Shown piece by piece: positions 19,040 to 30,521 of a stretch of 64,000 nt of DNA (the first letter of the stretch is position 1; every line of letters begins with the position of its first letter). Source of the DNA: Alphaproteobacteria bacterium (GTDB lineage Bacteria; Pseudomonadota; Alphaproteobacteria; UBA9219); assembly GCA_028683655.1 (NCBI GenBank), contig JAQUHK010000001.1, positions 11,526-75,525 on the forward strand. Direction: 5' to 3'. The notes beneath the pieces are model-generated. The model saw only the letters and a program-made list of their open reading frames with translations. It had not been told where the DNA came from and did no database searches. A program made the translations under genes and the position numbers.

Positions 19040-19615
19040 ATGAAAAAGAAAAACCTTATCTTAGCTTCCGCGCTTTTGTCCGTTTTGCTGGTGTCGGGTC
19101 TGGCTCAGGCCAAGACGACCGAGGCAACCACAACAGCAACAGCGGCGGCAACGACCAAGACGGCCCAAACGATGCCTGTCAAGAAGGGAATGGGGGCTGG
19201 CCTCGGGTTGTCCGAAGCCGGTCAAAAGCTTATGCATGACTCGATGACAAAGCAGCATGAAGAAAACAAGGCAACCTTTGAGGCCTTGATGGCTAAGCAA
19301 AAGGAGCTGGACGCAATCTTGAAGGCACCTACCTTCGACAAGGACTCATTCCTTGCCAAGGATGCGGAGATTCAGGCGTTGAGCCAGAAGATGATGCGTG
19401 CGCGTAGTGAATCCTTTGCCGAGATTGCGTCCCAGATGACACCGGAAGACCGGGCGAAGCTGGCCGAAAGTCGTGGCCCGCATTTTCGTATGGACGGTAT
19501 GGGCCCTCATGGCAAAGGGATGATGAAAAAGGGCATGGGATGCACCGATCCTGACGATTGCCCGATGAAAGGTAAGGGACTGGCCCCCGAGGCCGTTCCT
19601 GAAAAGGCTGAATAA
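19040..19615 (+). CDS. periplasmic Spy/CpxP-family-like protein
   Basis: Signal peptide. Helical with LTxxQ-like motifs (MTKQHEEN, MTPEDRAKL). Gly/Met/Lys-rich C-terminus. A good RBS (aggagg) precedes the ATG. Confidence 0.45.
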   Translation: MKKKNLILASALLSVLLVSGLAQAKTTEATTTATAAATTKTAQTMPVKKGMGAGLGLSEAGQKLMHDSMTKQHEENKATFEALMAKQKELDAILKAPTFDKDSFLAKDAEIQALSQKMMRARSESFAEIASQMTPEDRAKLAESRGPHFRMDGMGPHGKGMMKKGMGCTDPDDCPMKGKGLAPEAVPEKAE

Positions 19616-19705
19616 GCCGTAAAGTGTAAGGGGAGGGCAGGACCGCCGGGTTTGTGCCCTCCTCTCGACTTCCACAGTTTTGCCCCCTTTATTGGAGGTT
19701 CCGTC

Positions 19706-20152
19706 ATGACAAAAGTTTCTTCTTTCCTTTTTGCGCTTGTGGCGTTCAGCTTTTTGCTGGGGGCGATGCCTGCCAAAGCGGATACGGATATCTATGTCTC
19801 GCTTAATTCTCCTTATCACGCGCGCGGTCGCCATGATCATGGCCCACGCTATCATCATCGCCGCGATTGGCGTCCAGAGCCGATTTATTATGCGCCTGCC
19901 TACAGGCCGATGCCCCCGCGTTATATGCCGCCGATGAGGACCGTTGTCTATGAAACGACGGTTGTGCGGCCCCAAACGCAATATGTTGTGCCAGCCAGCA
20001 TGATGGCCTCGCAAACATCGCCAACCTATATGAGTGCTGCTGGCCAGACGTGCCGCGAATATACGACGCAGAGCTGGATCGGCAACGATTTGCAAAATGT
20101 TTATGGGACCGCCTGTCTGCAATCTGATGGCGCATGGCGGATTGTCGATTGA
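19706..20152 (+). CDS. secreted hypothetical protein with conserved C-terminal Cys pair (CREYTT...YGTACLQSDGAWRIV)
   Basis: Signal peptide from MTKVSSFLFALVAFSFLLGAMPAKA. Pro/Tyr/Arg-rich middle region. Confidence 0.45.
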   Translation: MTKVSSFLFALVAFSFLLGAMPAKADTDIYVSLNSPYHARGRHDHGPRYHHRRDWRPEPIYYAPAYRPMPPRYMPPMRTVVYETTVVRPQTQYVVPASMMASQTSPTYMSAAGQTCREYTTQSWIGNDLQNVYGTACLQSDGAWRIVD

Positions 20153-20715
20153 GCGTGAGCGAGGAAAAGCAAGCCCTGCGTCGGGAGCTGCGCCAGAAAA
20201 GAGCGGCTGCCACGTCGCTTGAGGCGGCACAAAGGCTGGCCGCTGTTTTTGATAAGGGCCTGTCCCTGCCGCCCGAAGCGTTGGTCGCGGGTTATAGTGC
20301 CGTTGGTGACGAGATAGACCCCCGTCCGTTGATGGAGAGCCTCACCCAGCGCGGTCACAGGCTCTGCCTGCCCTGCACAACACCGGACGGCGAGGCTTTG
20401 TCTTTTCGTGCTTACGGATTAAAGGACATGCTGCGGATCGGCGCGTGGTTGATCCCCGAGCCGATGCCCGATGCGCCGCTTGTTGTGCCCGATGTTCTGT
20501 TGGTCCCTTTACTGGGCTTTGACCGAGAGGGCTATCGTCTGGGGCAGGGCGGAGGCTATTACGATCGCACGCTGGCCGCCTTGCGCAAGCAAGGAGGCTG
20601 TCTATCTGTCGGGCTAGCCTACGCGGCGCAGGAGGTTGAGGTGCTTCCTGTCGAAGCGCACGATGCTAAACTTGATGCTGTCGTGACAGAGGCTCGGTTA
20701 ATCCTTTTTCCGTAA
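20134..20715 (+). CDS. 5-formyltetrahydrofolate cyclo-ligase
   Basis: GYRLGQGGGYYDRTL motif and overall MTHFS-like layout. The exact start is uncertain. Confidence 0.7.
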   Translation: MADCRLSVSEEKQALRRELRQKRAAATSLEAAQRLAAVFDKGLSLPPEALVAGYSAVGDEIDPRPLMESLTQRGHRLCLPCTTPDGEALSFRAYGLKDMLRIGAWLIPEPMPDAPLVVPDVLLVPLLGFDREGYRLGQGGGYYDRTLAALRKQGGCLSVGLAYAAQEVEVLPVEAHDAKLDAVVTEARLILFP

Positions 20716-21209
20716 GGCGCGTTGGGTTCGAAGAGGGGGCTGGGCTAGCGGCTCGCCCGCCTTTTCTGCCTTCGGTTTCTGCCTCGTTTTTGATTTGGAA
20801 AAAGTCATTTAGAATCAACGAATCAAGGCTAAAAAGGGCTCTGTGACGCACGGGAGGGCGTCTTGGGTACGCTCGAGGGGCTGTTCGGGAGTCTTTTTGG
20901 CCTAACCCATTGATCTGTAACAGCTTTCTTGAAATCGAGAGTAACGGGCAACCCCTTGATCTAAAACGATTTCTTCAAATCACCTTTTACGGAGAGATAA
21001 AATCGACGAAGTTGGCGTCCAGCGTCTTCCGCTCCTTTCCCCCTTCTGATTTTGGTGCTGATGGAACCTGCCTCGAAACAAAGCGAGTCGTAACGGCAAC
21101 ACTTTGTGAAATGGTTAGCAAAGCGTTAATCAAACGGTTGCGGCGTGAATCCCTGACTCTTACGCTGGCCATGGTGATTCGTTTTCGGTTACGGTCGGTT
21201 TCGGGGATT

Positions 21210-21704
21210 ATGGCAACGCAACCTCTTTTGGTTTTGTTTCTTTCGACGGGGAATGCTTCGCGCAGCCTCGTCGCTGAAGCCTTGCTCAATGCCCGCCAAA
21301 GCGGCTTGTACAGGGCGCGGAGCGCGGGGATATCGCCAGCTGCGACCGTGGATCCAGAGACCGTTGCCTTGCTGCAATATAACGGCTTTGACGTTGCCAA
21401 ACTCCATCCCAAGAAAGTGCAGGATTTTTACGCTGCCGCTTCTTATGTCAAAGTCGATGTCATTATCACATTGTCGGAAGAGGCCCGTTCCTTGTGTCCC
21501 GTCGATTGGCCGGGCGATCCAGTGCGTGTGCACTGGGATGTTGACAATCCGCTGGGGGCTGTGCGGCCCGATCAGCGTGAGTGGAAGTTGCGCAAGCTCT
21601 ACACAACACTGGAGGCGCGTATCGATATGCTTATGCGCTATCGTCCGGCTGGTTCACCGATGGAAACGCTGTTGATGCTCAAGGATATCGGGATGGTCGT
21701 TTAA
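21210..21704 (+). CDS. low-molecular-weight phosphotyrosine phosphatase / ArsC-like protein with catalytic Cys replaced (STGNASRS instead of CTGNxCRS)
   Basis: LMW-PTP fold signature VLFLSTGNASRSLVAEALL...DVIITL. The start is taken at ATG 21210; the ORF frame extends back to 20910. Confidence 0.55.
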   Translation: MATQPLLVLFLSTGNASRSLVAEALLNARQSGLYRARSAGISPAATVDPETVALLQYNGFDVAKLHPKKVQDFYAAASYVKVDVIITLSEEARSLCPVDWPGDPVRVHWDVDNPLGAVRPDQREWKLRKLYTTLEARIDMLMRYRPAGSPMETLLMLKDIGMVV

Positions 21705-21713
21705 GACGAGGCT

Positions 21714-22688
21714 TTAGCCCTGGCCGTGCATGATAGCCGAAACCTTGAGAGCGGCTGGTCCAATCAGAACGATAAACAACGGCGGCAAGATAAACAGGAT
21801 CATCGGGATGGTCATGATCGCGGGCAACGCGGCGGCTTTTTCTTCGGCCTTCATCATGCGGTCATTACGCATTTCACCGCCCAAGGTACGCAGTGCGGCG
21901 GCCAGTGGTGTACCGTATTTCTCGGTCTGGATCAGCGTATTGACCAAGGCCGTCACGCTAGGCAGGGGAACGCGGTCGGACAGGCCGCGCAGGGCCTTGT
22001 GACGTTCGGGAAGAAAGTTCAATTCAACGCCCGTCAGGCCCATTTCTTCCGCCAACTCGGCGCAGGTTGGCGCGATTTCGCGGCTGACGCGGTCAAAAGT
22101 GGCATCGAGGCCCAGACCGGCCTCGGCGCAGATAACCATCAGGTCGAGCGCGTCCGGCATGGCTTTGCGGAGGACTTCTTCGCGTTTCTGGCTCATGTTT
22201 TTAAGGAACATGTCAGGGAACATCCATCCGGCAGCCGTGGCAAGCAGGGGGGCCAGAAGGAGGAACATAGGGTCCATATCGACAACCTTGACAACAAGGA
22301 AGAAAAACACGGACGTGGCAGCAAAGCCGATCATGCAGGCGAGTTTGGCGAACAAAAAGACGAACATCGAGTCGCGGGAGTGATAGCCCGCCCGTCGCAG
22401 CTTCAGGCGTAGCTCGTCCATGCTTCGACCCTGAGCGAGTTTGAAGCGTTCAACGATCTGTTTGATGAGGCTGATTTTCTGGATTTGGGAACGGCGCGAG
22501 TTCTTCTTTTTGGTTGTAATCGATTCAAGGCTGTCCCGATGTTGGGTAACGGCTTTCAGTCGATCGGCGGCAGGCCCGCGATCAATAAAGGTAACCCACA
22601 ACAACACGACGACGGCCGACGCCACGATTCCGCACAAAGTTGAGAGGAAGTTGATGTTGTGGGTGAGGGAGTCGATGTCATCAAACAT
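21714..22688 (-). CDS. tadC: Flp pilus assembly protein TadC (T2SS-F family inner-membrane protein)
   Basis: GspF-like TM topology, in the tad operon. Confidence 0.8.
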   Translation of the reverse strand: MFDDIDSLTHNINFLSTLCGIVASAVVVLLWVTFIDRGPAADRLKAVTQHRDSLESITTKKKNSRRSQIQKISLIKQIVERFKLAQGRSMDELRLKLRRAGYHSRDSMFVFLFAKLACMIGFAATSVFFFLVVKVVDMDPMFLLLAPLLATAAGWMFPDMFLKNMSQKREEVLRKAMPDALDLMVICAEAGLGLDATFDRVSREIAPTCAELAEEMGLTGVELNFLPERHKALRGLSDRVPLPSVTALVNTLIQTEKYGTPLAAALRTLGGEMRNDRMMKAEEKAAALPAIMTIPMILFILPPLFIVLIGPAALKVSAIMHGQG

Positions 22689-22690
22689 GG

Positions 22691-23680
22691 CTAAATCTCG
22701 AAATTGACCATTTGGCGCATAACAAGGACGCCCATGCTAAGCCATGTCAAGCCGCCAGCCAGAAGCATGCGTCCGCCTGAGGTGTTAAAGAGAGTCATGA
22801 CATAGTCTGGATTGACGAACATCAACATGGTGAACATCAGGAATGGCAACGAGCCGATAATCATGGCCGAAGAGCGCGCTTCGGAAGACATGGCCTTAAT
22901 CTTCAGCTTAAGCTGGCGGCGTTTGCGGAGCAGATCGGCCAGATTACCCAGCGTTTCTGCCAGATTACCGCCTGTTTCACGCTGAATGGCGAGCGCAATA
23001 ATGAAGAAGCGATATTCCGGTGTATCCAGTCGCGGAGCCACTTCCCACATGGCTTCTTCGATCGAGCGGCCCATTTTGACACCGTCGCTGATGCGGGTGA
23101 ACTCGATCCCGATCGGATCCGGTAATTCGCGCCCCACTGTCGCGACCGTTTCGGTAATCGGAAGGCCAGAGCGAAGACCACGGCAAATGGTATCAATCGC
23201 TTCAGGGAATCCTTCGTTGAACTTTTTTAGGCGGCGTTTGATCATGCTTCCCGTGACCATATGGGGAAAAAGCAGGCCGATGGCAATGGCCGCCGAAGTG
23301 GCGATAGGGCGGGGCCACATAATGATGAAGGCAAAAACAAAGAAAAGCGTGCCGACAAGGGCCGTGTTGACCATCAGGTATTCGCCCAGACCGATGTTTC
23401 TTCCCGTGCAAGCCAGCCTGTGGCGCAATTTTTGGGGATTGGGCAAAAATGTCTTGATCAGGAAGTTCAGCGCGACAAAGTTACTGTCTTTTGTTTCTTT
23501 GAGAAGCTTGGCCTGTTCCTGACCCTTCTTTTTCTGTTTGCGCACGGGCGCGCCGCCAACCCGCTCAATACGCTTTTTTATAAGGGTGTCGTGTTCGCCG
23601 CCAGAAAAGGCGATGACGGCGATCAAAATCATGAAGAGACCGCCACCAAGAATAAGAATCAGCTGCGGGTTCAAGGACAT
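22691..23680 (-). CDS. tadB: Flp pilus assembly protein TadB (T2SS-F family)
   Basis: GspF-like protein, in the tad operon. Confidence 0.8.
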   Translation of the reverse strand: MSLNPQLILILGGGLFMILIAVIAFSGGEHDTLIKKRIERVGGAPVRKQKKKGQEQAKLLKETKDSNFVALNFLIKTFLPNPQKLRHRLACTGRNIGLGEYLMVNTALVGTLFFVFAFIIMWPRPIATSAAIAIGLLFPHMVTGSMIKRRLKKFNEGFPEAIDTICRGLRSGLPITETVATVGRELPDPIGIEFTRISDGVKMGRSIEEAMWEVAPRLDTPEYRFFIIALAIQRETGGNLAETLGNLADLLRKRRQLKLKIKAMSSEARSSAMIIGSLPFLMFTMLMFVNPDYVMTLFNTSGGRMLLAGGLTWLSMGVLVMRQMVNFEI

Positions 23681-25389
23681 GCTATGGCCTCCATCAGCTC
23701 TTTTTCAAGGCCGAAATAGGCGGCTTTAGGCAAGCAGTGGGGACGCAAGCCGTTATTCCTGAACTCGACCGTCAGGCGACCATCGGGCAACTCGCCCGTC
23801 ACATCGCAAATAAACAAGTCTTGCAAGGAGATAACATCACCTTCCATGCCCGTGATTTCGGAAATATAGGTCACGCGGCGTGAACCGTCGCGCATGCGGC
23901 TGACCTGAATGATCATATCGACAGCCGAAGCAATTTGCTGGTGAATGGCGCGTGGGGCCAGATTGGCACCACCAAGACCGACCATGTTCTCCAAGCGCAT
24001 AATCGCTTCGCGCGGACGGTTGGCGTGGACGGTGGAAAGGGAACCATCATGGCCTGTATTCATAGCCTGAAGCATGTCGATGGCTTCACCACCACGCGTT
24101 TCACCGACGATGATACGGTCAGGGCGCATACGCAACGCGTTTTTAAGCAGATCGCGCATTGTGATTTCGCCAGCCCCCTCAAGGTTAGGGGGGCGGGTTT
24201 CAAGACGGACGATGTGCGGCTGTTGCAGTTGCAATTCGGCAGCATCTTCGATGGTGACAATACGTTCGCCGTGATCGATAGTCTGTGACAACGCGTTGAG
24301 CAGGGTGGTTTTACCCGAACCCGTACCACCGGAAATCAAGATGTTAAGGCGGCACCGGCCCGCAATGCGCAGAACGCGCGCCATTTGTGGCGAAATACTC
24401 TCAAACTTCACCATCGTATCGAGCGTAATCTTCTTTTTGGAGAATTTACGAATGGTGATTGAGGGGCCGTCGATGGCCAGAGGCGGAACGATGATGTTAA
24501 CGCGGCTGCCGTCCATAAGACGCGCATCGCAAAGCGGCGAACTTTCGTCGATGCGACGACCGATGGCCGTCACGATGCGGGTTGCGATCGACATGACGTG
24601 AGCATTGTCGCGGAATTTGACATCGGTGATTGAAAGCTTGCCGCGGCTTTCGCAGTAAACCTGTTTGGGACCGTTGACCATGATTTCCGAAATGTTTTCG
24701 TCGGCCAAAAGGGGCTCAAGCGGACCAAGTCCCAGCATATCGTTCAAAAGCTGTTCGACAAGATCAACGCGTTCGGCGGCGTTCAATTGGATCTTTGTTT
24801 CGAAAAGCAGTTCGCCGACAATACCCTTTAAATCGCGGGCAAGGTCTTCTCGCGCCATATGAACGGCGGCGGATGTATCGATACGTTCCAGCACCATCGG
24901 CTGGAGTTTGATCTTTGCCTGATCCACACTGGCGCGGCTGGCCACATTAAGCGGCTTCTCGGCGGGTTTGGGCGCGGTTTCGGGTTCTCGTTCCGACTCG
25001 GCGGAGGCCCCGTTATCGGCGGGCGGTGATTCGGCGGTGACATCCATATCGGCCATCGATTGAGGGGCCGACGGTTTTTGAAGGGCTTGCAAGATGTCTG
25101 ATGCTGCCATATTGCCGGGGTCTGCGTGGGTTGAGGCCCCCAAAATGGATGTTGCCAGAATGCTGACCAGATCGCGCTGGTCCAGAAGGTTGAGTTCAAC
25201 ACCCTGACGGCGCAAGAAATCCGTCGCGTATTTTTTGACTTCGCGCACCACTTCGGGGCGCGACATGCGGGCCGCTTTTTCTTCTGTGATTTCCGTTTTC
25301 AGGCCAGGCAGGATGCGCGTGATCAAGGCAGAGATCGAGTTATCGCTCCCTGTCTCGTCAGACCCTGATTTGCCTATGGAAAAACTCAT
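23671..25389 (-). CDS. cpaF: Flp pilus assembly ATPase CpaF/TadA
   Basis: Walker [10 protein letters not shown] and secretion-ATPase motifs. Acidic/Pro-rich N-terminal extension. Confidence 0.9.
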
Positions 25390-26609
25390 TTTTTAGACGC
25401 TCCCTTAACAAACACCTTGAACAGAAGGGCCATCAGGCTGCTGTTTGATTTCTTGTTCTTCTTTGGGTTCGCTTCGTCTCCGTTTGAGCCCATAAGATGT
25501 TCCGCCAGTTTGTGGATGGCAAGGGTTACCGGCGAAGAGGGGGCGATGGCGTCAAGCATTTTACCGCTGTTGCTTGAGGCAACCATGGCTTTATGATCGT
25601 CGGGAACGATGAAGTCGAGCGAGGCCTGTGTGCCTTTGGTAAAGGTTTGCTCGTCAACGGCTGCCGGGCGAGTCGGGCCTATTTTCGTTGCAACCTGGGT
25701 GACGCGTGCCGTAATGCCCAAGTTCTTGAGCGTCGAGCGAATGCGCAAAGTATCGCGAATGCCGACAAGCGACATCTCGGTGACCAGAACGATTTCCTGT
25801 GCCGTTGCCAAAAGGCGTTTTTGTGTAGGCAGCAGGTATTTCGGCATATCGATGATGATAGCCTGATGCGTGATGCGCATTTCTTTCAGGAGAGCCATGA
25901 TGGCTGTCGGGTCGATATGAACGATTTCATCAAGCGGTTCTTCGGCGCTGAGGATGCCCAGCGTATCGCTTTCGGTTACAAGGGCACCTGCAATCATCAG
26001 GCCGTCGACGCGCTGGGGCGAACTGAGAACGTCCCTGAGCCCATGGCCCGGTTCAATATCCATCGCCAGTGCGCTGGTTCCGTATTGAAGGTCCAGGTCG
26101 AGAAGGGCGCATTTAATCTTACTTCGGTGGGATAGTGTCCAGGCTAGATTGGTGGCAAGAGCACTTGCGCCCACGCCGCCGCGCACACCGATAAAGATGA
26201 TGTTTTTTGAATCCTTGATTTCTCCGCCCGTGGTGCTCGTGCCCCGCGTTGCGGCCAAAAGGGTCTGGGTCAATGCTTCAGGGGTGATGGGTTTGACCAG
26301 ATAGTCGGCCATACCCGCCCCAAGCATGCCGCGGAAGAGGGTGACATCGTTGGCCGATCCCATGGCAACAAGGCGGCAAGACGGTCCGCAAAGGCTGACG
26401 AGACGGGCGGCAAGCTGAACGGGTTGTTCTTGTTTGTCAAAATCGACGAGGGCGAACTTTGGCGGCGCGTCGAAATCAAGCATCGACGTGAACAACTCCG
26501 GCCCCCCGCTTTGCACGGCTTCCGCAGGAAAGCTTTGTCGATCCGCCCAAACACGAATGATGCGTGCTGTGTCGTCGTCGTTCACAAAGGCCATAAAATC
26601 GTTATGCAT
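25386..26609 (-). CDS. cpaE: pilus assembly protein CpaE (receiver-like domain + MinD/ParA-like ATPase)
   Basis: GVRGGVGAS deviant Walker A. In the operon between cpaD and cpaF. Confidence 0.8.
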   Translation of the reverse strand: MHNDFMAFVNDDDTARIIRVWADRQSFPAEAVQSGGPELFTSMLDFDAPPKFALVDFDKQEQPVQLAARLVSLCGPSCRLVAMGSANDVTLFRGMLGAGMADYLVKPITPEALTQTLLAATRGTSTTGGEIKDSKNIIFIGVRGGVGASALATNLAWTLSHRSKIKCALLDLDLQYGTSALAMDIEPGHGLRDVLSSPQRVDGLMIAGALVTESDTLGILSAEEPLDEIVHIDPTAIMALLKEMRITHQAIIIDMPKYLLPTQKRLLATAQEIVLVTEMSLVGIRDTLRIRSTLKNLGITARVTQVATKIGPTRPAAVDEQTFTKGTQASLDFIVPDDHKAMVASSNSGKMLDAIAPSSPVTLAIHKLAEHLMGSNGDEANPKKNKKSNSSLMALLFKVFVKGASKK

Positions 26610-26651
26610 TAGGTCACCTTTACGCAGAAGGGGCGTCGAAGAAAAAAGGGA

Positions 26652-27068
26652 TTACTTCGGTGTTTCTCCTGAGCCAGTCGAGTTTGAAGTAGAGGAAGGT
26701 GCTTCGGCTTTCGCGTCCATCAGTTCCTTTGTCTTACCAGCGCGATAGTCGACGATGGAAGCAGAGGAAACCACGGGATCTGGATGGCCAAGTTCCTTCG
26801 GCGTTGTCAGATCAGCAGGGTTCTCGACCTGCATAGCAAGGTTTCGGGCCATCGCACAGCCGAGCTGCGGTGATGTGCCATTGTTCCACGGATCAAGGAG
26901 CGTGTCTTGGCTGACGCATTCCGGCGGCACGGCCAAAGTCGCCTTGCCGTTGGCCGAGGGGACTAGCTTGACGCTGTAATCAGGATGAAGCGCTGGCTCT
27001 GCACAGGCCGCCAGTGTGATTGCTACGGAAAAGATGGCCAGCGTTTTTGAAAGAGCAAAGGACTTCAT
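26652..27068 (-). CDS. cpaD: pilus assembly lipoprotein CpaD
   Basis: Lipobox ITLAAC. Position between cpaC and cpaE. Confidence 0.65.
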   Translation of the reverse strand: MKSFALSKTLAIFSVAITLAACAEPALHPDYSVKLVPSANGKATLAVPPECVSQDTLLDPWNNGTSPQLGCAMARNLAMQVENPADLTTPKELGHPDPVVSSASIVDYRAGKTKELMDAKAEAPSSTSNSTGSGETPK

Positions 27069-27072
27069 GGCA

Positions 27073-29049
27073 TTACTCCACAATAAAGCCGCCCGGCCCG
27101 GCTAAAGCCGGTTGGAACGAATCCGAGGCAGGGGCTTGGGTTTGAACGGATTTGGATTGGGCAGGGGCTTCCTTGGCCTTGGGGGGCGCGGGGAGAGACT
27201 GGGCTGTAGGCTCTTGCGCCTTCGGCTCTTGCTTTGGAGCCACTTCTTCTTTTTGAGCCTCAGGCTTTGCCTCTATGGGCTTTTCCACCGTGGCCGGCAG
27301 GGCTTCTTCCTTTGGTGTTTCCGCTTTGGGGGATTCAGCGGCTTTTTGTGGGGCCGCTGTGTTGATCACAGACTTGGCCACAGGAGCCGCATGCTTCTTG
27401 GCCGGTTTCTCTTGAGCCACAGTTTCAGGATCGGGGCGCGCAGCGATTTCTTCGGGCGTCTGGAAACGATGGACAGCCTTCGGTTCGGCAAGAGCCGACG
27501 GTTTTACGTTGACAGGAGCCGGAAGTGCCGGAGGCGGCGCCATATTGTTGCCGTTCGTGACAACGGGAACAGGTGCTTTCGCCGGGGCTGGAGCCATGTC
27601 ATAGATGGGGGCATCGACCTTTGCCGCCACAGGTTCGCCAGTGATGGGCTTGGCGTTCGGGTCGCTGCTTGTCTCGCGCATCTTAAAGAACAAATCGGTG
27701 TCTGACGGTGTTGTCCGACCATCTGTTGGAAGGGCCAGCTTGTTAGCCGTAGATGGCTTGACGACATAGGGGGTGATAATGATGACCAGCTCAGTTTCGC
27801 TGTTCTGAAAGCGTGTTGAGCGGAAGAGAGGCCCAAGGATGGGGACATCGCCAAGGAAGGGGAATTTGCTGACCGACTGGGTTTGTTGGTTGTTGAGCAA
27901 GCCTGCAATCGCAAAGCTCTGACCGCTCGCCAGCTCAAGTGTTGTTTCAGCGCGACGGGTGGTCAGGGCGGGGATGGCTACATTGTCTAAGGTAATCGAA
28001 CCGGCATCGGACAATTGGCTGACTTCGGGCCGGACGTGCAGGTTAATGCGGTCGCCGCTCAGGATTGTCGGTGTAAAGGCCAAGGAAACACCGTATTGTT
28101 TCCATTCGATCGTGATTGAACCGCCATCTTGGGGGACAGGGATTGGAAACTCGCCGCCCGCCAGAAAGCTTGCCGTCTGGCCCGACATGGCTGTCAGGGA
28201 CGGTTCGGCCAGAATGGTGACAAGGCCATTCTTGGCCAGCGCGTCAATCATGCCGTTGACGCTGAAATGGCCGTTGTTGAAGCTTCCGGCAAAAACGTCT
28301 TGTGTTTCACCATCAAGATTTGTGCGGGTCCAAAGTTCTGTTGTTTCAGAGTCAAGAAAATCAGGGCCATGCGCAACACCAAGCATAAAACTACCGATTG
28401 AAGCACTGTTTTCCCAGTTGATGCCAAAGCGCTTGTCAACTTCGCGCGCGACTTCAGCAAAGCGGACGCGAATTTCAACCTGATTGTTCGCTTTGACGTG
28501 AAGATGGTTGATAATATCGCCTTCTGCCGTGATATAGCGGCGGGCCAAGCGACGAGCATCTTCGACGGCCGTTGGGTCTTTGACGGTACCTGATAAAACC
28601 AAGCCATCGGGAATTGACTCGACTTGAATATCACTGTCGGGAATAGCCATCCGAAGGGTGGTGCGCAAATCGTCAAGGTTTTGCTTGACGTGAATGGTCC
28701 GGCTTAAAATAACGCGGCCATTCTCATCCGAAATTTGCAATGACGTATCGCCGACTTTCTTGCCGTAAACAGTGACGGAGAGCGGCGAATTGACCTGAAT
28801 ATCCGCGATAAGGGGGTTGGCGATAAAAACGGAAGAGGCGGGTTTCTTGAACTGGAGCGGGACACTCTTGTCGACCATCACATCCAAAGAAGCGGTGCCG
28901 CTCTGTTGATGAGAAGACGGCCCACCTTGAGCTGCCAGAACGTCAGGCGTGAGAAAGGTAGTCCCGACAATCAGGCCTGCGAGCAATGCTATCGCAGGCA
29001 GCGAAGCAAAAGATAAAGAACGCGGAGATTTCATGACCGGCTTCCTCAT
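27073..29049 (-). CDS. cpaC: Flp pilus secretin CpaC/RcpA with ~190-aa Pro/Ala/Lys-rich C-terminal extension
   Basis: Signal peptide, pilus N-domain and secretin domain (..ELVIIITPYVV..). Then a low-complexity PAPAKAPVP...KPEAQKEEVAPKQEPKAQEP tail. Confidence 0.85.
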   Translation of the reverse strand: MRKPVMKSPRSLSFASLPAIALLAGLIVGTTFLTPDVLAAQGGPSSHQQSGTASLDVMVDKSVPLQFKKPASSVFIANPLIADIQVNSPLSVTVYGKKVGDTSLQISDENGRVILSRTIHVKQNLDDLRTTLRMAIPDSDIQVESIPDGLVLSGTVKDPTAVEDARRLARRYITAEGDIINHLHVKANNQVEIRVRFAEVAREVDKRFGINWENSASIGSFMLGVAHGPDFLDSETTELWTRTNLDGETQDVFAGSFNNGHFSVNGMIDALAKNGLVTILAEPSLTAMSGQTASFLAGGEFPIPVPQDGGSITIEWKQYGVSLAFTPTILSGDRINLHVRPEVSQLSDAGSITLDNVAIPALTTRRAETTLELASGQSFAIAGLLNNQQTQSVSKFPFLGDVPILGPLFRSTRFQNSETELVIIITPYVVKPSTANKLALPTDGRTTPSDTDLFFKMRETSSDPNAKPITGEPVAAKVDAPIYDMAPAPAKAPVPVVTNGNNMAPPPALPAPVNVKPSALAEPKAVHRFQTPEEIAARPDPETVAQEKPAKKHAAPVAKSVINTAAPQKAAESPKAETPKEEALPATVEKPIEAKPEAQKEEVAPKQEPKAQEPTAQSLPAPPKAKEAPAQSKSVQTQAPASDSFQPALAGPGGFIVE

Positions 29050-30002
29050 GGTTGATAAAGGTCAAAGACGGTATCTGTCGCCATCTGACCCCTGATAACT
29101 GTCACTTTTTGGGTTGTGCCGGCAGACCGCTGGGCGGGGCTAGGCATAACCTTGCTCACATCGCTGTCCCATGTATAGGCACCGAGAGCAGGTGGATTTT
29201 TGGCATCTTGAGTCGCCAGCGCAGCAGCGTCAAGGATAACATCGGGGACTTTCCCCCCCTCGACGGTCTGTGTGGTTTCACCTTCGGCGGTCGCTTCGGT
29301 TGTGACGCTGCAAAGTGAAAGCGAAATGGTTCCCATCTGGGCCATCAGCGCGACGGTTTCTGCCTGCTTGGGAGAAACCTCAAGTGTGGCAACCTGAGCC
29401 AGTTTCGGTTCCGTAATTTGATCGCCCATCTTCTGGTCGAGGGCTAGAACGCGAATATTTTTCAGCATTGTTTCGCTAACGTGCCGCTCAACCTGGCTGC
29501 GTTCCGTACCGGACGGCAGGACGCTGTGTGTAACGATGACATCGACACGGTCGCCAGGGAAAACGAATCCGGCAACGCCGGCAACAGGCGTAACAGCAAT
29601 AGAAACAGCGCGTTTGCCAGCCTCCAAAGCGGCGGCCATAAAGCCCTGCTCTCCCGGTTTGACGGTGCGGCCTTGGGTAAGGGGTTCACCCGTTCTCATA
29701 CCGTAACGAACGACGTTGCCGACATAGTTCTGGATATCCTGTTGTCCCTTGACGGCATAACTGGCGGCATTCTCATCCTTCGGCCAAACTTGCCATTTCA
29801 GATCATTAGCCTTGATCAACGAACCGGAAGGTAAATCCTGAGCGGCGACAAGGACTTCCTGAGTCTCTTGCTGGGCCTGTGCCTGAATCATGGGGGTGGA
29901 TTCTGGCTGGGACATCATGCCGCGTGAAAGAAAGATCGTGGCGACGCCGACGAGGAGGGCGACCACAAGAAGCATGATTTTCTGAGACGTTTGCATAGGC
30001 AT
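29046..30002 (-). CDS. cpaB: Flp pilus assembly protein CpaB (SAF-domain)
   Basis: N-terminal TM anchor and CpaB-like sequence. Confidence 0.8.
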   Translation of the reverse strand: MPMQTSQKIMLLVVALLVGVATIFLSRGMMSQPESTPMIQAQAQQETQEVLVAAQDLPSGSLIKANDLKWQVWPKDENAASYAVKGQQDIQNYVGNVVRYGMRTGEPLTQGRTVKPGEQGFMAAALEAGKRAVSIAVTPVAGVAGFVFPGDRVDVIVTHSVLPSGTERSQVERHVSETMLKNIRVLALDQKMGDQITEPKLAQVATLEVSPKQAETVALMAQMGTISLSLCSVTTEATAEGETTQTVEGGKVPDVILDAAALATQDAKNPPALGAYTWDSDVSKVMPSPAQRSAGTTQKVTVIRGQMATDTVFDLYQP

Positions 30003-30014
30003 GACAAAACCTCC

Positions 30015-30521
30015 TTAGACCTTCCCGGACGAAAGGCCCGCGTGTGACAACAGAAACAGAACCCCAAGACCGCCTAAAGCAATAGCTATGCCATAGGGAA
30101 TGGGGGTCGAAAGAATAGACACTTTCTTTTCTTCTTTGGACAAACGCTGTTTGACGGCAGCCAAAGCCAAAAGACCAGCTGAAAGAATACCGCCAGCAAA
30201 AGCGGTAATAACGATAAACTCGGCAATATGAGCCAGACCTGCCCACAAAGAGACGACGGCAAGCAGTTTGATATCCCCGGCTCCCGCTAGATTCTTGAGA
30301 TAAATGAGGTAGCCGATAAGCAGAACGCCGCCAAATATGAAAACATCGGCCTGCCAGCGCACAGGGGTGGGTGACAAAGCGGCATAGGGAACGTAGAGAA
30401 CGAACAGAGCCAAACAGGCAGCGTTGGGTATCCGGAAAGTACGCGCATCACTGTACGCTGCCCACAAAAGAGCGGCAACGGCAAGAGAAAGAGACGCGTT
30501 ATAGGCCAGAACGGATAGCAT
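30015..30521 (-). CDS. cpaA: prepilin peptidase CpaA/TadV (A24 family)
   Basis: Polytopic membrane protein with conserved Asp residues. First gene of the operon. Confidence 0.75.
   Translation of the reverse strand: MLSVLAYNASLSLAVAALLWAAYSDARTFRIPNAACLALFVLYVPYAALSPTPVRWQADVFIFGGVLLIGYLIYLKNLAGAGDIKLLAVVSLWAGLAHIAEFIVITAFAGGILSAGLLALAAVKQRLSKEEKKVSILSTPIPYGIAIALGGLGVLFLLSHAGLSSGKV

What the first reader, a model, noticed from the sequence alone, without database searches (positions are those of the whole stretch)
21210..21704. LMW-PTP/ArsC-fold protein with both catalytic cysteines replaced by Ser/Ala (STGNASRS), next to the tad operon
The P-loop of LMW phosphotyrosine phosphatases and Spx-type arsenate reductases is C-T-G-N-x-C-R-S. 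Here it reads S-T-G-N-A-S-R-S, so the nucleophilic Cys and the second Cys are both absent while the Arg is kept. Either the nucleophile has changed (Ser) or this is a catalytically dead pseudo-phosphatase, a phosphotyrosine-binding regulator. It is encoded convergently at the 3' end of the Flp-pilus operon.
Basis: partly seen in the sequence, partly recalled or inferred. Interest (0 to 1): 0.5.

Follow-up and report, generated by a model that had tools for sequence, protein, structure and literature searches.

The report
Cysteine-less arsenate-reductase-like protein family
This gene encodes a small protein descended from a bacterial arsenate reductase whose reactive cysteines have been replaced by serine in a whole group of uncultured Alphaproteobacteria, so it is most likely a non-catalytic ligand-binding protein, and its position beside the pilus operon looks coincidental.

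Summary
Window 21210-21704 (+) encodes a 164-aa protein of the LMW-phosphatase/ArsC fold whose P-loop reads STGNASRS.

It is not a one-off. More than 100 database proteins and about 35 species-level genomes carry S-T-G-N-A-A-R-[S/G]. All are uncultured Alphaproteobacteria.

- **Lost:** against thioredoxin-coupled ArsC, Cys10 and Cys82 are Ser in every full-length member.
- **Relaxed:** Cys89 and the general-acid Asp105, which is Asn in the window protein.
- **Kept or gained:** the P-loop Arg and backbone stay near-invariant. A new motif (E-W-K..K-C) and a C-terminal ...GMVV tail are conserved.

The closest Cys-bearing relatives (CTGNSARS) sit with arsenic genes. This family never does.

The tad link is not conserved: it appears in only 2 of 38 loci. 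The usual neighbour is a divergent thrS.

Best reading, by inference only, is an ArsC-derived pseudoenzyme that binds an oxyanion or phospho-ligand. A serine-based enzyme or phospho-acceptor is not excluded.

A side finding is a conserved promoter with paired GANTC sites, including a TGATTCG box that matches GcrA/CcrM-type cell-cycle promoters.

Public labels calling relatives "arsenate reductase ArsC" are probably wrong. Interest is moderate.

The parts
21210..21704 (+). CDS of the 164-aa Cys-less ArsC/LMW-phosphatase-fold protein, identical to MDD2324417.1, which is labelled 'hypothetical protein'
   Evidence: ORF. Pfam LMWPc E = 5.3e-14. 100% identical to P0001. AlphaFold model pLDDT 92.3. 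Foldseek top hits are ArsC structures.
21243..21266 (+). P-loop codons, residues 12-19, S-T-G-N-A-S-R-S. Ser12 replaces the nucleophilic Cys10 of pI258 ArsC. Arg18 is retained.
   Evidence: Sequence and alignment to 8p5n. S12 and R18 are invariant, and T13, G14 and N15 are at least 98% conserved in 93 family sequences. Ser12 codons are all TCN with all four third bases used.
21474..21476 (+). Ser89 codon (TCG), the equivalent of redox-relay Cys82 of ArsC
   Evidence: ITLSEEA aligns with ITVCDRA of 8p5n. Ser in 100% of the family against Cys in 100% of 71 sister sequences.
21495..21497 (+). Cys96 codon, the equivalent of ArsC Cys89 and the only Cys in the window protein
   Evidence: Conserved in only 87% of the family against 99% of sisters. 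Some members have no Cys at this position or at position 130.
21543..21548 (+). Asp112-Asn113 codons. Asn113 replaces the general-acid Asp105 of ArsC. Asp112 is a family-specific acquisition.
   Evidence: HWDVDNP aligns with HWPFEDP of 8p5n. Position 113 is D in 83% and N in 15% of the family, but D in 100% of sisters. Position 112 is D in 96% of the family, but P or E in sisters.
21570..21599 (+). Start of the last core helix, residues 121-130 (D-x-R-E-W-K-L-R-K-L), carrying the family-specific E124/W125/K126/K129 motif
   Evidence: Differential conservation. Helix 120-143 in the model. Its role as a new interaction or ligand surface is inferred.
21657..21701 (+). C-terminal extension helix and tail (…METLLMLKDIGMVV-COOH), conserved to the last residue
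   Evidence: V164 is invariant, and V163, L157 and E152 are at least 90% conserved. Helix 150-161 in the model. The extension lies beyond the 131-residue pI258 ArsC used in the alignment.
21138..21181 (+). Inferred promoter and leader. -35 TTGCGG (21138-43); spacer with GAATC (21147-51) and GACTC (21155-59); -10 TACGCT (21161-66); TGATTCG box (21175-81), 34 nt before the ATG.
   Evidence: The architecture is conserved across loci. YGAKTCG is present at -60..-15 in 31 of 38 loci against 0.0075 expected per locus. It fits the GcrA box definition and its reported positions (PMC9976885). The consensus scanner did not pick it, so the promoter is inferred from conservation only.
21714..22688 (-). 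tadC (T2SSF family), the convergent neighbour and last gene of the tad/cpa operon 21714-30521. Context only; probably not functionally tied.
   Evidence: Pfam T2SSF. The same arrangement occurs only in L006.

Best explanation
The gene encodes a member of a lineage-specific family of ArsC-derived pseudoenzymes. Its ancestor was a thioredoxin-coupled arsenate reductase of the LMW-phosphatase fold. In one uncultured alphaproteobacterial clade the gene left the arsenic-resistance context and lost the thiol chemistry: Cys10 became Ser, Cys82 became Ser, and Cys89 and Asp105 are no longer required. It kept the phosphate-binding cradle (P-loop backbone plus Arg18, with Ser12 as an H-bonding stand-in for Cys). 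It gained a conserved basic/aromatic patch at the start of the last core helix and a conserved C-terminal helix and tail. The most likely mode of action is non-catalytic. The P-loop would hold an oxyanion or a phosphorylated ligand, much as engineered Cys-to-Ser 'substrate-trap' mutants do, and the new surface would couple that binding to a partner protein. Transcription probably comes from a promoter carrying GcrA-type methylated-GANTC boxes, which would make it cell-cycle dependent.

**Shown:** the fold, the substitutions, their conservation, the loss of ars context, and the promoter motif.

**Inferred:** absence of catalysis, ligand binding, partner coupling, and GcrA/CcrM control.
For: **Fold and ancestry.** Pfam LMWPc. 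The best NCBIfam matches are ArsC models, but far below cut-off: 50.8 against 174 bits. The model has pLDDT 92.3. Foldseek top hits are ArsC2 of D. indicus (TM 0.88-0.91), then pI258 and B. subtilis ArsC.

**The substitution is a family trait.** All full-length homologues carry Ser, as do 35 species-level loci. Ser12 and Ser89 are invariant while their codons use all four third-position bases, which indicates purifying selection.

**Redox relay gone.** C82 is Ser in 100% of members. C89 drops to 87% and D105 to 83% (15% Asn). The Ser after the Arg is Gly in 17%. No Cys is universal.

**P-loop kept.** T13, G14, N15 and R18 are 98-100% conserved. New family-specific residues E124, W125, K126, K129 and the MVV-COOH tail appear.

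**Context.** Sister CTGNSARS proteins occur with MIP/AqpS channels and as ArsR fusions. No family locus shows an arsenic gene among the neighbour clusters I annotated.

**Promoter.**. GANTC is depleted in the window: 156 against 251±14.

**Degenerate orthologue.** P0103 lies between thrS and the same glycosyltransferase and has lost even Ser and Arg (GNTNSCLS).
Against: - No biochemical data exist, and inactivity is inferred from residues only.
- Ser12 is never Ala or Gly in more than 130 sequences. That would also fit a chemical role for the hydroxyl.
- YwlE C7S shows that a Ser in this kind of P-loop can become phosphorylated (PDB 4kk4, listed).
- A near-invariant Asp112, acquired next to position 113, could substitute as an acid or bind a metal.
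- No ligand or partner is identified.
- P0103 is a singleton and may simply be decaying.
- The GcrA link rests on motif matches. Neither methylation nor a gcrA or ccrM gene was examined.
- I could not map conservation onto the model coordinates.
Confidence: 0.5

Rival explanations
1. It is an active enzyme with changed chemistry. Ser12 could be the nucleophile or a stable phosphoryl acceptor, giving a phospho-Ser12 switch charged from a high-energy donor such as phospho-Arg, phospho-His or an acyl phosphate. Alternatively, water activated by the Asp112/Asp113 pair could attack directly.
For: Ser12 is absolutely invariant and Arg18 is invariant, and the P-loop is the best conserved segment. Asp113 is kept in 83% of members, and a second acidic residue, Asp112, is 96% conserved. 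A structure exists of YwlE C7S with a phosphorylated active-site serine (4kk4).
Against: Cys-to-Ser exchange in this superfamily normally abolishes turnover (established knowledge from LMW-PTP and ArsC mutants). The general acid is Asn in the window protein and in several separate sub-lineages. The nucleophile-activating Ser19 is Gly in 17% of members. Gly14 is Lys or Arg in L039 and L064, and Asn15 is Asp in several members. Orthologue P0103 lacks both Ser and Arg.
Confidence: 0.2
2. It is a pilus-associated regulator: a phospho-ligand-binding accessory of Tad or type IV pilus biogenesis.
For: It is convergent with tadC at 9 nt in the window, and next to tadC/B/A in L006. In about six other loci (L003, L011, L012, L015, L019, L029) a type IV pilin-like gene (N_methyl/PilS) follows directly on the same strand, overlapping the stop codon in L011. 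That makes two different pilus systems as neighbours.
Against: Only about 8 of 38 loci have any pilus gene adjacent. Most have thrS upstream and a glycosyltransferase or unrelated genes downstream. The pilin-linked loci are mostly close relatives of each other, so they are few independent events. The window has no homologue of that pilin. A convergent arrangement is not an operon.
Confidence: 0.12
3. It is still an arsenate reductase or tyrosine phosphatase, as public annotation of its orthologues says, using the remaining Cys96 or Cys130 or an external thiol.
For: Homology to ArsC. Orthologues are named 'arsenate reductase ArsC' or 'protein-tyrosine-phosphatase' in NCBI and JGI. Cys96 is present in 87% of members.
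Against: The nucleophile Cys10 and relay Cys82 are absent in all members. Some members have neither Cys96 nor Cys130, for example P0039. The score is far below the ArsC equivalog cut-offs. No ars genes are nearby, whereas the Cys-bearing sisters have them.
Confidence: 0.04
4. It is a decaying gene remnant with no function.
For: Catalytic residues are lost. One orthologue (P0103) is further degenerate.
Against: The ORF is intact in all loci at 161-167 aa. Mean column identity is 67% across proteins down to 41% identical, and 22 columns are invariant, including the very last residue. Synonymous codon turnover occurs at invariant Ser sites. The promoter motifs are conserved.
Confidence: 0.03

Closest known systems
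Thioredoxin-coupled arsenate reductase ArsC of the LMW-phosphatase fold (S. aureus pI258 ArsC, B. subtilis ArsC, D. indicus ArsC2, PDB 8p5n/8p6m)
   Same: Same fold (Foldseek TM 0.78-0.91). Same P-loop frame x-T-G-N-x-x-R-S, and the same S-A-G, H-W and D-P landmarks. ArsC2 is 32% identical. The window protein has the same pattern as the engineered B. subtilis construct in PDB 2ipa: Ser at Cys10 and Cys82, no Cys at position 15 (Ser here, Ala in 2ipa), and Cys89 kept (alignment).
   Different: The nucleophile Cys10 and relay Cys82 are Ser, and Asp105 is Asn in the window protein. It has a roughly 25-residue C-terminal extension and a new E-W-K..K motif. There is no ars operon context. It scores 50.8 bits against the 174-bit equivalog cut-off.
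CTGNSARS-type ArsC-like proteins of Rhodobacteraceae and Gammaproteobacteria (Leisingera, Ruegeria and others), some fused to ArsR
   Same: They are the nearest Cys-bearing relatives at 33-44% identity. They share Ala at the second P-loop Cys position, the W-P-G-x-P…H-W block and a homologous C-terminal helix (…L-x-x-Q-L-x-x-I-G).
   Different: They keep Cys10, Cys82, Cys89 and Asp105 at 99-100% and sit with MIP/AqpS channels or ArsR domains. The family has lost all of this.
LMW protein tyrosine/arginine phosphatases (Wzb, MPtpA, YwlE)
   Same: Same superfamily, fold and P-loop geometry. The YwlE C7S structure with phospho-serine (4kk4) is a laboratory analogue of a Ser P-loop.
   Different: Only 16-22% identical. 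These enzymes need the Cys nucleophile and the Asp general acid. The family is closer to ArsC than to the PTPs in every search.
Eukaryotic pseudophosphatases of the Cys-phosphatase superfamily (for example MK-STYX with Ser for Cys; Drosophila LMW-PTP paralogues once classed as pseudophosphatases; trypanosome mt-SAF26)
   Same: The same evolutionary theme: a phosphatase fold retained and the nucleophile lost, with the protein reused for binding or scaffolding. MK-STYX is cited from my own knowledge. Primo-1 and CG31469 are discussed in PMC7772506. mt-SAF26 is an LMWPc-domain protein built into a ribosome assembly intermediate (6sga).
   Different: These are unrelated lineages in eukaryotes, with no sequence relationship beyond the superfamily. 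I found no bacterial ArsC-derived example described in the literature searches.
GcrA/CcrM-dependent promoters of Caulobacter (for example PmipZ, PcsM)
   Same: The YGAKTCG box (TGATTCG) lies just downstream of the inferred -10/TSS, and a second GANTC lies in the -35/-10 spacer. These are the two positions reported for GcrA boxes (PMC9976885).
   Different: Sequence-level resemblance only. The TSS, methylation and GcrA binding are untested, and the organism is an uncultured relative, not Caulobacter.

Membership tests
LMW phosphatase superfamily (Pfam PF01451, fold level) | Four-stranded parallel beta-sheet Rossmann-like fold with an N-terminal P-loop between beta1 and alpha1 | tested here: met
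   Pfam E = 5.3e-14. The AF2 model has pLDDT 92.3, with strand 6-12 followed by helix 18-29. There are 95 PDB matches at E <= 1e-3, all listed ones being ArsC or LMW-PTP.
LMW protein tyrosine phosphatase (catalytically competent) | Nucleophilic Cys at the first position of C-X5-R-(S/T) | tested here: not met
   Ser12 in the window protein and in every full-length family sequence.
LMW protein tyrosine phosphatase (catalytically competent) | P-loop Arg that binds the phosphate | tested here: met
   Arg18 is invariant.
LMW protein tyrosine phosphatase (catalytically competent) | General-acid Asp in the D-P loop | tested here: not met
   Asn113 in the window protein (HWDVDNP against HWPFEDP). Family: 83% Asp, 15% Asn.
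Thioredoxin-coupled arsenate reductase (TIGR02691 arsC_pI258_fam) | Cys10-Cys82-Cys89 disulfide relay | tested here: not met
   Ser12, Ser89 and Cys96: two of the three are missing in all members and the third is dispensable.
Thioredoxin-coupled arsenate reductase (TIGR02691 arsC_pI258_fam) | Score above the equivalog cut-off | tested here: not met
   50.8 bits against 174.3.
Thioredoxin-coupled arsenate reductase (TIGR02691 arsC_pI258_fam) | Arsenic-resistance gene neighbourhood (arsR, arsB/acr3/aqpS, arsH) | tested here: not met
   None appears among the annotated neighbour clusters of 38 family loci. It is present around the sister clade.
Thioredoxin-coupled arsenate reductase (TIGR02691 arsC_pI258_fam) | Arsenate reduction activity | not testable with these tools
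   Needs a Trx/TrxR/NADPH coupled assay.
Pseudoenzyme (pseudophosphatase / pseudo-ArsC) | Enzyme fold retained, essential catalytic residues missing, and sequence under purifying selection | tested here: met
   fold; residues; 22 invariant columns; synonymous turnover at invariant Ser codons.
Pseudoenzyme (pseudophosphatase / pseudo-ArsC) | Demonstrated lack of catalytic activity | not testable with these tools
   Requires purified protein.
GcrA/CcrM regulon (promoter class) | GANTC site of the YGAKTCG type in the -35/-10 spacer or at +5 to +30 | tested here: met
   TGATTCG at 21175-21181, 9 nt after the inferred -10. GAATC at 21147-51 in the spacer. Found in 31 of 38 loci. The definition is from PMC9976885. 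The TSS is inferred, not measured.
GcrA/CcrM regulon (promoter class) | N6-adenine methylation of the site and GcrA-dependent activation | not testable with these tools
   The only indirect support is that GANTC is depleted in the window, 156 against 251±14.

The most novel reading that the evidence does not exclude
The family is a natural serine P-loop phospho-switch. Ser12 would accept a phosphoryl group from a high-energy donor and hold it, as the trapped phospho-serine form of YwlE C7S does. The protein would then act as a slowly reversible phospho-signal carrier, made at a defined cell-cycle stage from a GcrA/CcrM-controlled promoter and read out through its new helix surface and C-terminal tail, possibly towards pilus or envelope biogenesis. 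That would be a new kind of bacterial signalling protein built from a dead arsenate reductase.
Probability: 0.08. Interest if true: 0.75.

Novelty: new variant of a known kind. Interest (0 to 1): 0.38.

Why it matters
- **Annotation.** Orthologues are currently labelled "arsenate reductase ArsC" or "protein-tyrosine-phosphatase". The residues say they can be neither by the known mechanisms, so arsenic-resistance inventories of these metagenomes are slightly inflated.
- **A clean pseudoenzyme example.** This is a dated case of pseudoenzyme birth in bacteria. The Cys-bearing, ars-linked sisters, the Ser family and a further degenerate orthologue can all be lined up. Bacterial pseudophosphatases are little studied compared with eukaryotic ones.
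- **A ready-made substrate trap.** The protein naturally carries the substitutions at Cys10 and Cys82 that structural biologists engineer into ArsC to trap complexes, and it has no Cys at position 15 either. That makes it a good probe for what such a pocket binds in vivo.
- **A testable promoter.** The conserved paired-GANTC promoter gives a handle on GcrA/CcrM-type regulation in an uncultured alphaproteobacterial clade.

None of this overturns current understanding, so the interest is moderate.

Tried and rejected
- **tad-operon link.** Rejected as a general feature. It occurs only in the window and L006.
- **Longer N-terminus** (TTG 20910 or ATG 21111; 195-197-aa gene calls in P0004, P0018, P0019, P0251). 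Rejected. The apparent peptide conservation ('..VIRF..') is translated promoter DNA (GTGATTCG), and other loci have in-frame stops there.
- **Structured RNA in the 494-nt upstream gap.** No Rfam match even at E <= 1. The GAATC…GATTC pair gives only about 5 bp, so a DNA-level element is more likely.
- **Functional reading of thrS synteny.** The neighbouring ThrRS proteins are 59-85% identical. The clade is therefore shallow enough for synteny to be inherited, and I draw no conclusion from it.
- **Degenerate relatives.**
  - P0103 is a positional orthologue but a singleton.
  - P0106 sits on a 2-kb contig with only the glycosyltransferase side shared.
  - P0108 is not syntenic and lacks the promoter motif.
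  - These give weak evidence only.
- **Small co-oriented downstream ORFs in L025, L028 and L032.** By eye they look like a BrnT/BrnA-type toxin-antitoxin pair. Irrelevant here.
- **Literature.** Two full-text searches for a described bacterial Cys-less ArsC or LMW-PTP found only eukaryotic pseudophosphatase papers.
- **AFDB Foldseek.** The library was unavailable.
- **Consensus promoter scanner.** It did not find the inferred promoter, because its -10 is weak.
Full report
**1. Observation**

Window 21210-21704 (+) is an intact ATG-to-TAA ORF of 164 codons. Residues 12-19 read S-T-G-N-A-S-R-S. Pfam LMWPc matches at E = 5.3e-14 over residues 8-138.

The NCBIfam ArsC models match only weakly. TIGR02691 gives 50.8 bits against a cut-off of 174.3.

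The best solved relative is D. indicus ArsC2 (8p5n, E = 2.7e-16). The printed alignment places:
- S12 under the nucleophilic Cys (LFLCTGNTARS),
- S89 under the second relay Cys (ITVCDRA against ITLSEEA),
- C96 under the third (NCP against LCP),
- N113 under the general-acid Asp (HWPFEDP against HWDVDNP).

It is already Ala in the nearest Cys-bearing relatives.

'Spx-type' is a mislabel. Spx belongs to the thioredoxin-fold ArsC family, not to this fold.

**2. Start codon**

A longer reading is possible (TTG 20910, or ATG 21111, which gives 197 aa), and some pipelines use it (P0251; P0004, P0018, P0019). Three things argue against it:
- Nearly all homologues start 9-12 residues before the Ser.
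- In L007, L020, L039 and L064 an in-frame stop lies 1-2 codons upstream of the matched region.
- The 'conserved' extension is a translated DNA motif (section 7).

**3. A family, not an accident**

The 5.8-billion-protein search returned 101 proteins, 47-100% identical. Every full-length one has Ser at the nucleophile position. The consensus is L-F-L-S-T-G-N-A-A-R-[S/G].

A scan of GTDB species representatives found the family in about 35 genomes. All are MAGs labelled Alphaproteobacteria, 'Rhodospirillaceae' or 'Bdellovibrionales'. NCBI places the alphaproteobacterial predator Micavibrio in Bdellovibrionales, so these labels are compatible with a single alphaproteobacterial clade. That last step is inference.

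Below about 42% identity the hits switch abruptly to L-C-T-G-N-S-A-R-S proteins of Rhodobacteraceae and Gammaproteobacteria.

An exhaustive profile search found 11,019 superfamily members at E <= 1e-3 but only 19 at E <= 1e-30. The family is thus a small, sharply bounded clade, and a neighbour-joining tree recovers it as monophyletic.

Ser12 and Ser89 are invariant while their codons use TCC, TCG, TCA and TCT. The amino acid is held by selection.

**4. What changed and what was kept**

I compared 93 family sequences with 71 CTGNSARS sisters.

| Category | Position (pI258 numbering, or window numbering where marked) | Family | Sisters |
|---|---|---|---|
| Lost | Cys10 | Ser 100% | Cys 100% |
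| Lost | Cys82 | Ser 100% | Cys 100% |
| Relaxed | Cys89 | 87% | 99% |
| Relaxed | Asp105 | 83% Asp, 15% Asn | 100% |
| Relaxed | Ser after the P-loop Arg | 83% Ser, 17% Gly | 100% |
| Kept | T13, G14, N15, R18 (window numbering) | 98-100% | conserved |
| Kept | S-A-G, K68, H108-W109 (window numbering) | conserved | conserved |
| Gained | Ala for Ser14, Asp112, Leu115, E124-W125-K126, K129, Cys130 (89%), E152…L157…M-V-V-COOH | family-specific | absent |

V164 is invariant.

The Asn at position 113 occurs in several sub-lineages, including the window's. No cysteine is universal: P0039 has neither Cys96 nor Cys130.

The AlphaFold model is confident (pLDDT 92.3). It superposes on ArsC structures and adds a C-terminal helix at 150-161.

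The pattern is loss of thiol and acid-base chemistry, strong retention of the anion-binding loop, and a new conserved surface.

**5. Genomic context**

The tad/cpa operon beside the gene is real:

| Gene | Coordinates (all on the - strand) |
|---|---|
| tadC | 21714-22688 |
| tadB | 22691-23680 |
| cpaF/tadA | 23671-25389 |
| cpaE/tadZ | 25386-26609 |
| cpaD | 26652-27083 |
| secretin | 27073-29049 |
| cpaB | 29046-30002 |
| cpaA | 30015-30521 |

Clustering the neighbours of 38 family loci gave the following:
- tad genes lie downstream only in the window and in L006 (68% identical).
- 26 loci carry thrS. Where it is the adjacent gene it is divergent, with a 140-280 nt gap.
- In the window, L006 and L007 the upstream gene is 5-formyl-THF cyclo-ligase.
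- Downstream partners vary. The commonest are a GT4 glycosyltransferase (convergent, 11 loci) and a type IV pilin-like gene with an N-methylation motif (co-oriented in about six loci, overlapping the stop codon in L011).

Two different pilus systems as neighbours is a weak recurring signal. I keep it as a minority hypothesis.

The adjacent ThrRS proteins are 59-85% identical. The clade is shallow enough for thrS synteny to be inherited rather than functional.

None of the recurrent neighbour clusters I annotated around the family is an arsenic gene. The sister clade is different: a MIP/AqpS channel lies within the flanks in 18 of 45 loci, and an ArsR HTH-LMWPc fusion was confirmed for L081.

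**6. Interpretation**

The ancestry is an ars-linked, thioredoxin-coupled ArsC. The family left that context and dropped the residues needed for its chemistry, but preserved the oxyanion cradle and evolved new surface features.

The best-supported reading is a pseudoenzyme that binds an oxyanion or phospho-ligand and signals through a partner (confidence about 0.5).

The window protein has the same pattern as the engineered B. subtilis ArsC construct in PDB 2ipa, which was solved in complex with thioredoxin: Ser at Cys10 and Cys82, no Cys at position 15 (Ser here, Ala in 2ipa), and Cys89 kept (alignment).

The main rival is altered chemistry, with Ser12 as nucleophile or phospho-acceptor. In its favour:
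- Ser12 is invariant.
- Asp112 has been acquired next to position 113.
- The YwlE C7S phospho-serine structure exists (4kk4).

Against it:
- Asp-to-Asn exchanges at position 113.
- The Ser19-to-Gly sub-clade.
- Gly14 to Lys/Arg in L039 and L064.
- P0103, a positional orthologue lying between thrS and the same glycosyltransferase, whose loop reads G-N-T-N-S-C-L-S.

P0103 is a singleton, so this last point is weak.

Canonical arsenate reductase or tyrosine phosphatase activity, as public names claim, is very unlikely. Pseudogene decay is contradicted by the conservation.

**7. Side finding: a conserved promoter**

Upstream of almost every family member lies the same architecture:

ATTGACC (-35), then a 17-18-nt spacer containing GGAATCC, then a TACAGT-like -10, then 9-10 nt, then (G)TGATTCG, which sits about 35 nt before the ATG.

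| Window element | Coordinates |
|---|---|
| -35 TTGCGG | 21138-43 |
| GAATC | 21147-51 |
| GACTC | 21155-59 |
| -10 TACGCT | 21161-66 |
| TGATTCG | 21175-81 |

Supporting counts:
- YGAKTCG in the sense orientation occurs at -60..-15 in 31 of 38 loci, against 0.0075 expected per locus.
- GANTC density in the 110 nt upstream is 8.5 times background.
- GANTC is depleted in the window overall (156 against 251±14), and so is YGAKTCG (22 against 41±6.6). This is what I would expect for a genome with CcrM methylation (my knowledge).

According to PMC9976885, GcrA recognises m6A-GANTC sites of the YGAKTCG type. These lie in the -35/-10 spacer (around -20 and -30) or at +5 to +30, which are the two places seen here.

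The motif travels with the gene whether its neighbour is thrS or the cyclo-ligase. I infer GcrA/CcrM-type, cell-cycle-linked transcription. The TSS, methylation and GcrA dependence are untested, and the consensus promoter scanner did not pick this promoter. No Rfam family matches the region.

**8. Novelty and score**

Losses of the nucleophilic Cys are recurrent in this superfamily. Among the top 150 representatives I saw several other lineages with Ser, Gly or Asp at that position. Pseudophosphatases are a well-known concept in eukaryotes.

Two literature searches found no description of this bacterial family.

I rate it a new variant of a known kind. It has moderate interest (0.38), useful annotation consequences and a testable regulatory motif. 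The tad association that made it look special is not supported.

Noticed in passing
window 21138-21181 (and L003-L039, L064 upstream of the gene): The conserved promoter architecture has a GANTC site in the -35/-10 spacer and a TGATTCG (YGAKTCG) box just after the inferred -10. The box is present in 31 of 38 loci against 0.0075 expected per locus, and it matches the published GcrA box definition and positions.
   Followed up: yes
window 21115-21130: TTAG-N7-TTAAT lies just upstream of the inferred -35 and resembles a CtrA box (TTAA-N7-TTAAC, from my own knowledge). Similar TTAN-N7-TTAA(C/T) strings were seen by eye in L006, L007 and L013, and half-sites in L008-L010. I did not test this statistically.
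   Followed up: no
window 1-64000; cluster at 20812-21180: GANTC is strongly under-represented in the whole window (156 against 251±14 in shuffles), and YGAKTCG too (22 against 41±6.6). Yet seven GANTC sites crowd into the 370-nt intergenic stretch upstream of the gene. This is compatible with a CcrM-methylating genome.
   Followed up: partly
P0103/L087, P0106/L086, P0108/L088, P0123, P0139, P0168, P0187 and others: Several other lineages among the closest superfamily representatives lack the nucleophilic Cys (Ser, Gly or Asp instead), and some also lack the Arg. P0103 is a positional orthologue (thrS on one side, the same GT4 gene on the other) with a fully degenerate loop, GNTNSCLS. Cys-less ArsC-like proteins seem to be a recurrent and unstudied phenomenon.
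   Followed up: partly
P0008, P0011, P0057, P0086, P0045, P0081 (public records): Family members are annotated 'arsenate reductase ArsC' or 'protein-tyrosine-phosphatase' in NCBI and JGI, although they lack the residues needed for either activity. The window's own protein (MDD2324417.1) is labelled 'hypothetical protein'.
   Followed up: yes
L003 6530-7168, L011 6489-7142, L012 712-1368, L015 6507-7136, L019 6492-7127, L029 6530-7234: A type IV pilin-like gene (N-terminal methylation motif G/A-F-T/S-L-x-E; PilS domain hit in L003) lies directly downstream on the same strand in about six loci, and overlaps the stop codon in L011. The window has no homologue.
   Followed up: partly
L040-L085 (sister loci), e.g. 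L047 6483-7139, L081 877-1668: The nearest Cys-bearing relatives (CTGNSARS) sit beside a MIP/AqpS-like channel in 18 of 45 loci. About a dozen are 270-300-aa forms, and L081 is confirmed as an ArsR-type HTH_20 plus LMWPc fusion.
   Followed up: partly
L025 6794-7072, L028 6511-7069, L032 6537-7077: Two small co-oriented ORFs downstream of the gene in three loci look by eye like a BrnT/BrnA-type toxin-antitoxin pair. I did not check them against any library.
   Followed up: no
window 21705-21713: Only 9 nt separate the stop codons of the convergent LMWPc-like gene and tadC, and no terminator-like hairpin was found there. The two transcripts probably overlap at their 3' ends.
   Followed up: no
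window 19040-20715: The upstream block is conserved with L007: a Metal_resist (Spy/CpxP-like) protein, then a small protein with a weak 17-kDa-antigen match, then 5-formyl-THF cyclo-ligase. In the window's sub-clade this block replaces the thrS neighbour seen elsewhere.
   Followed up: partly
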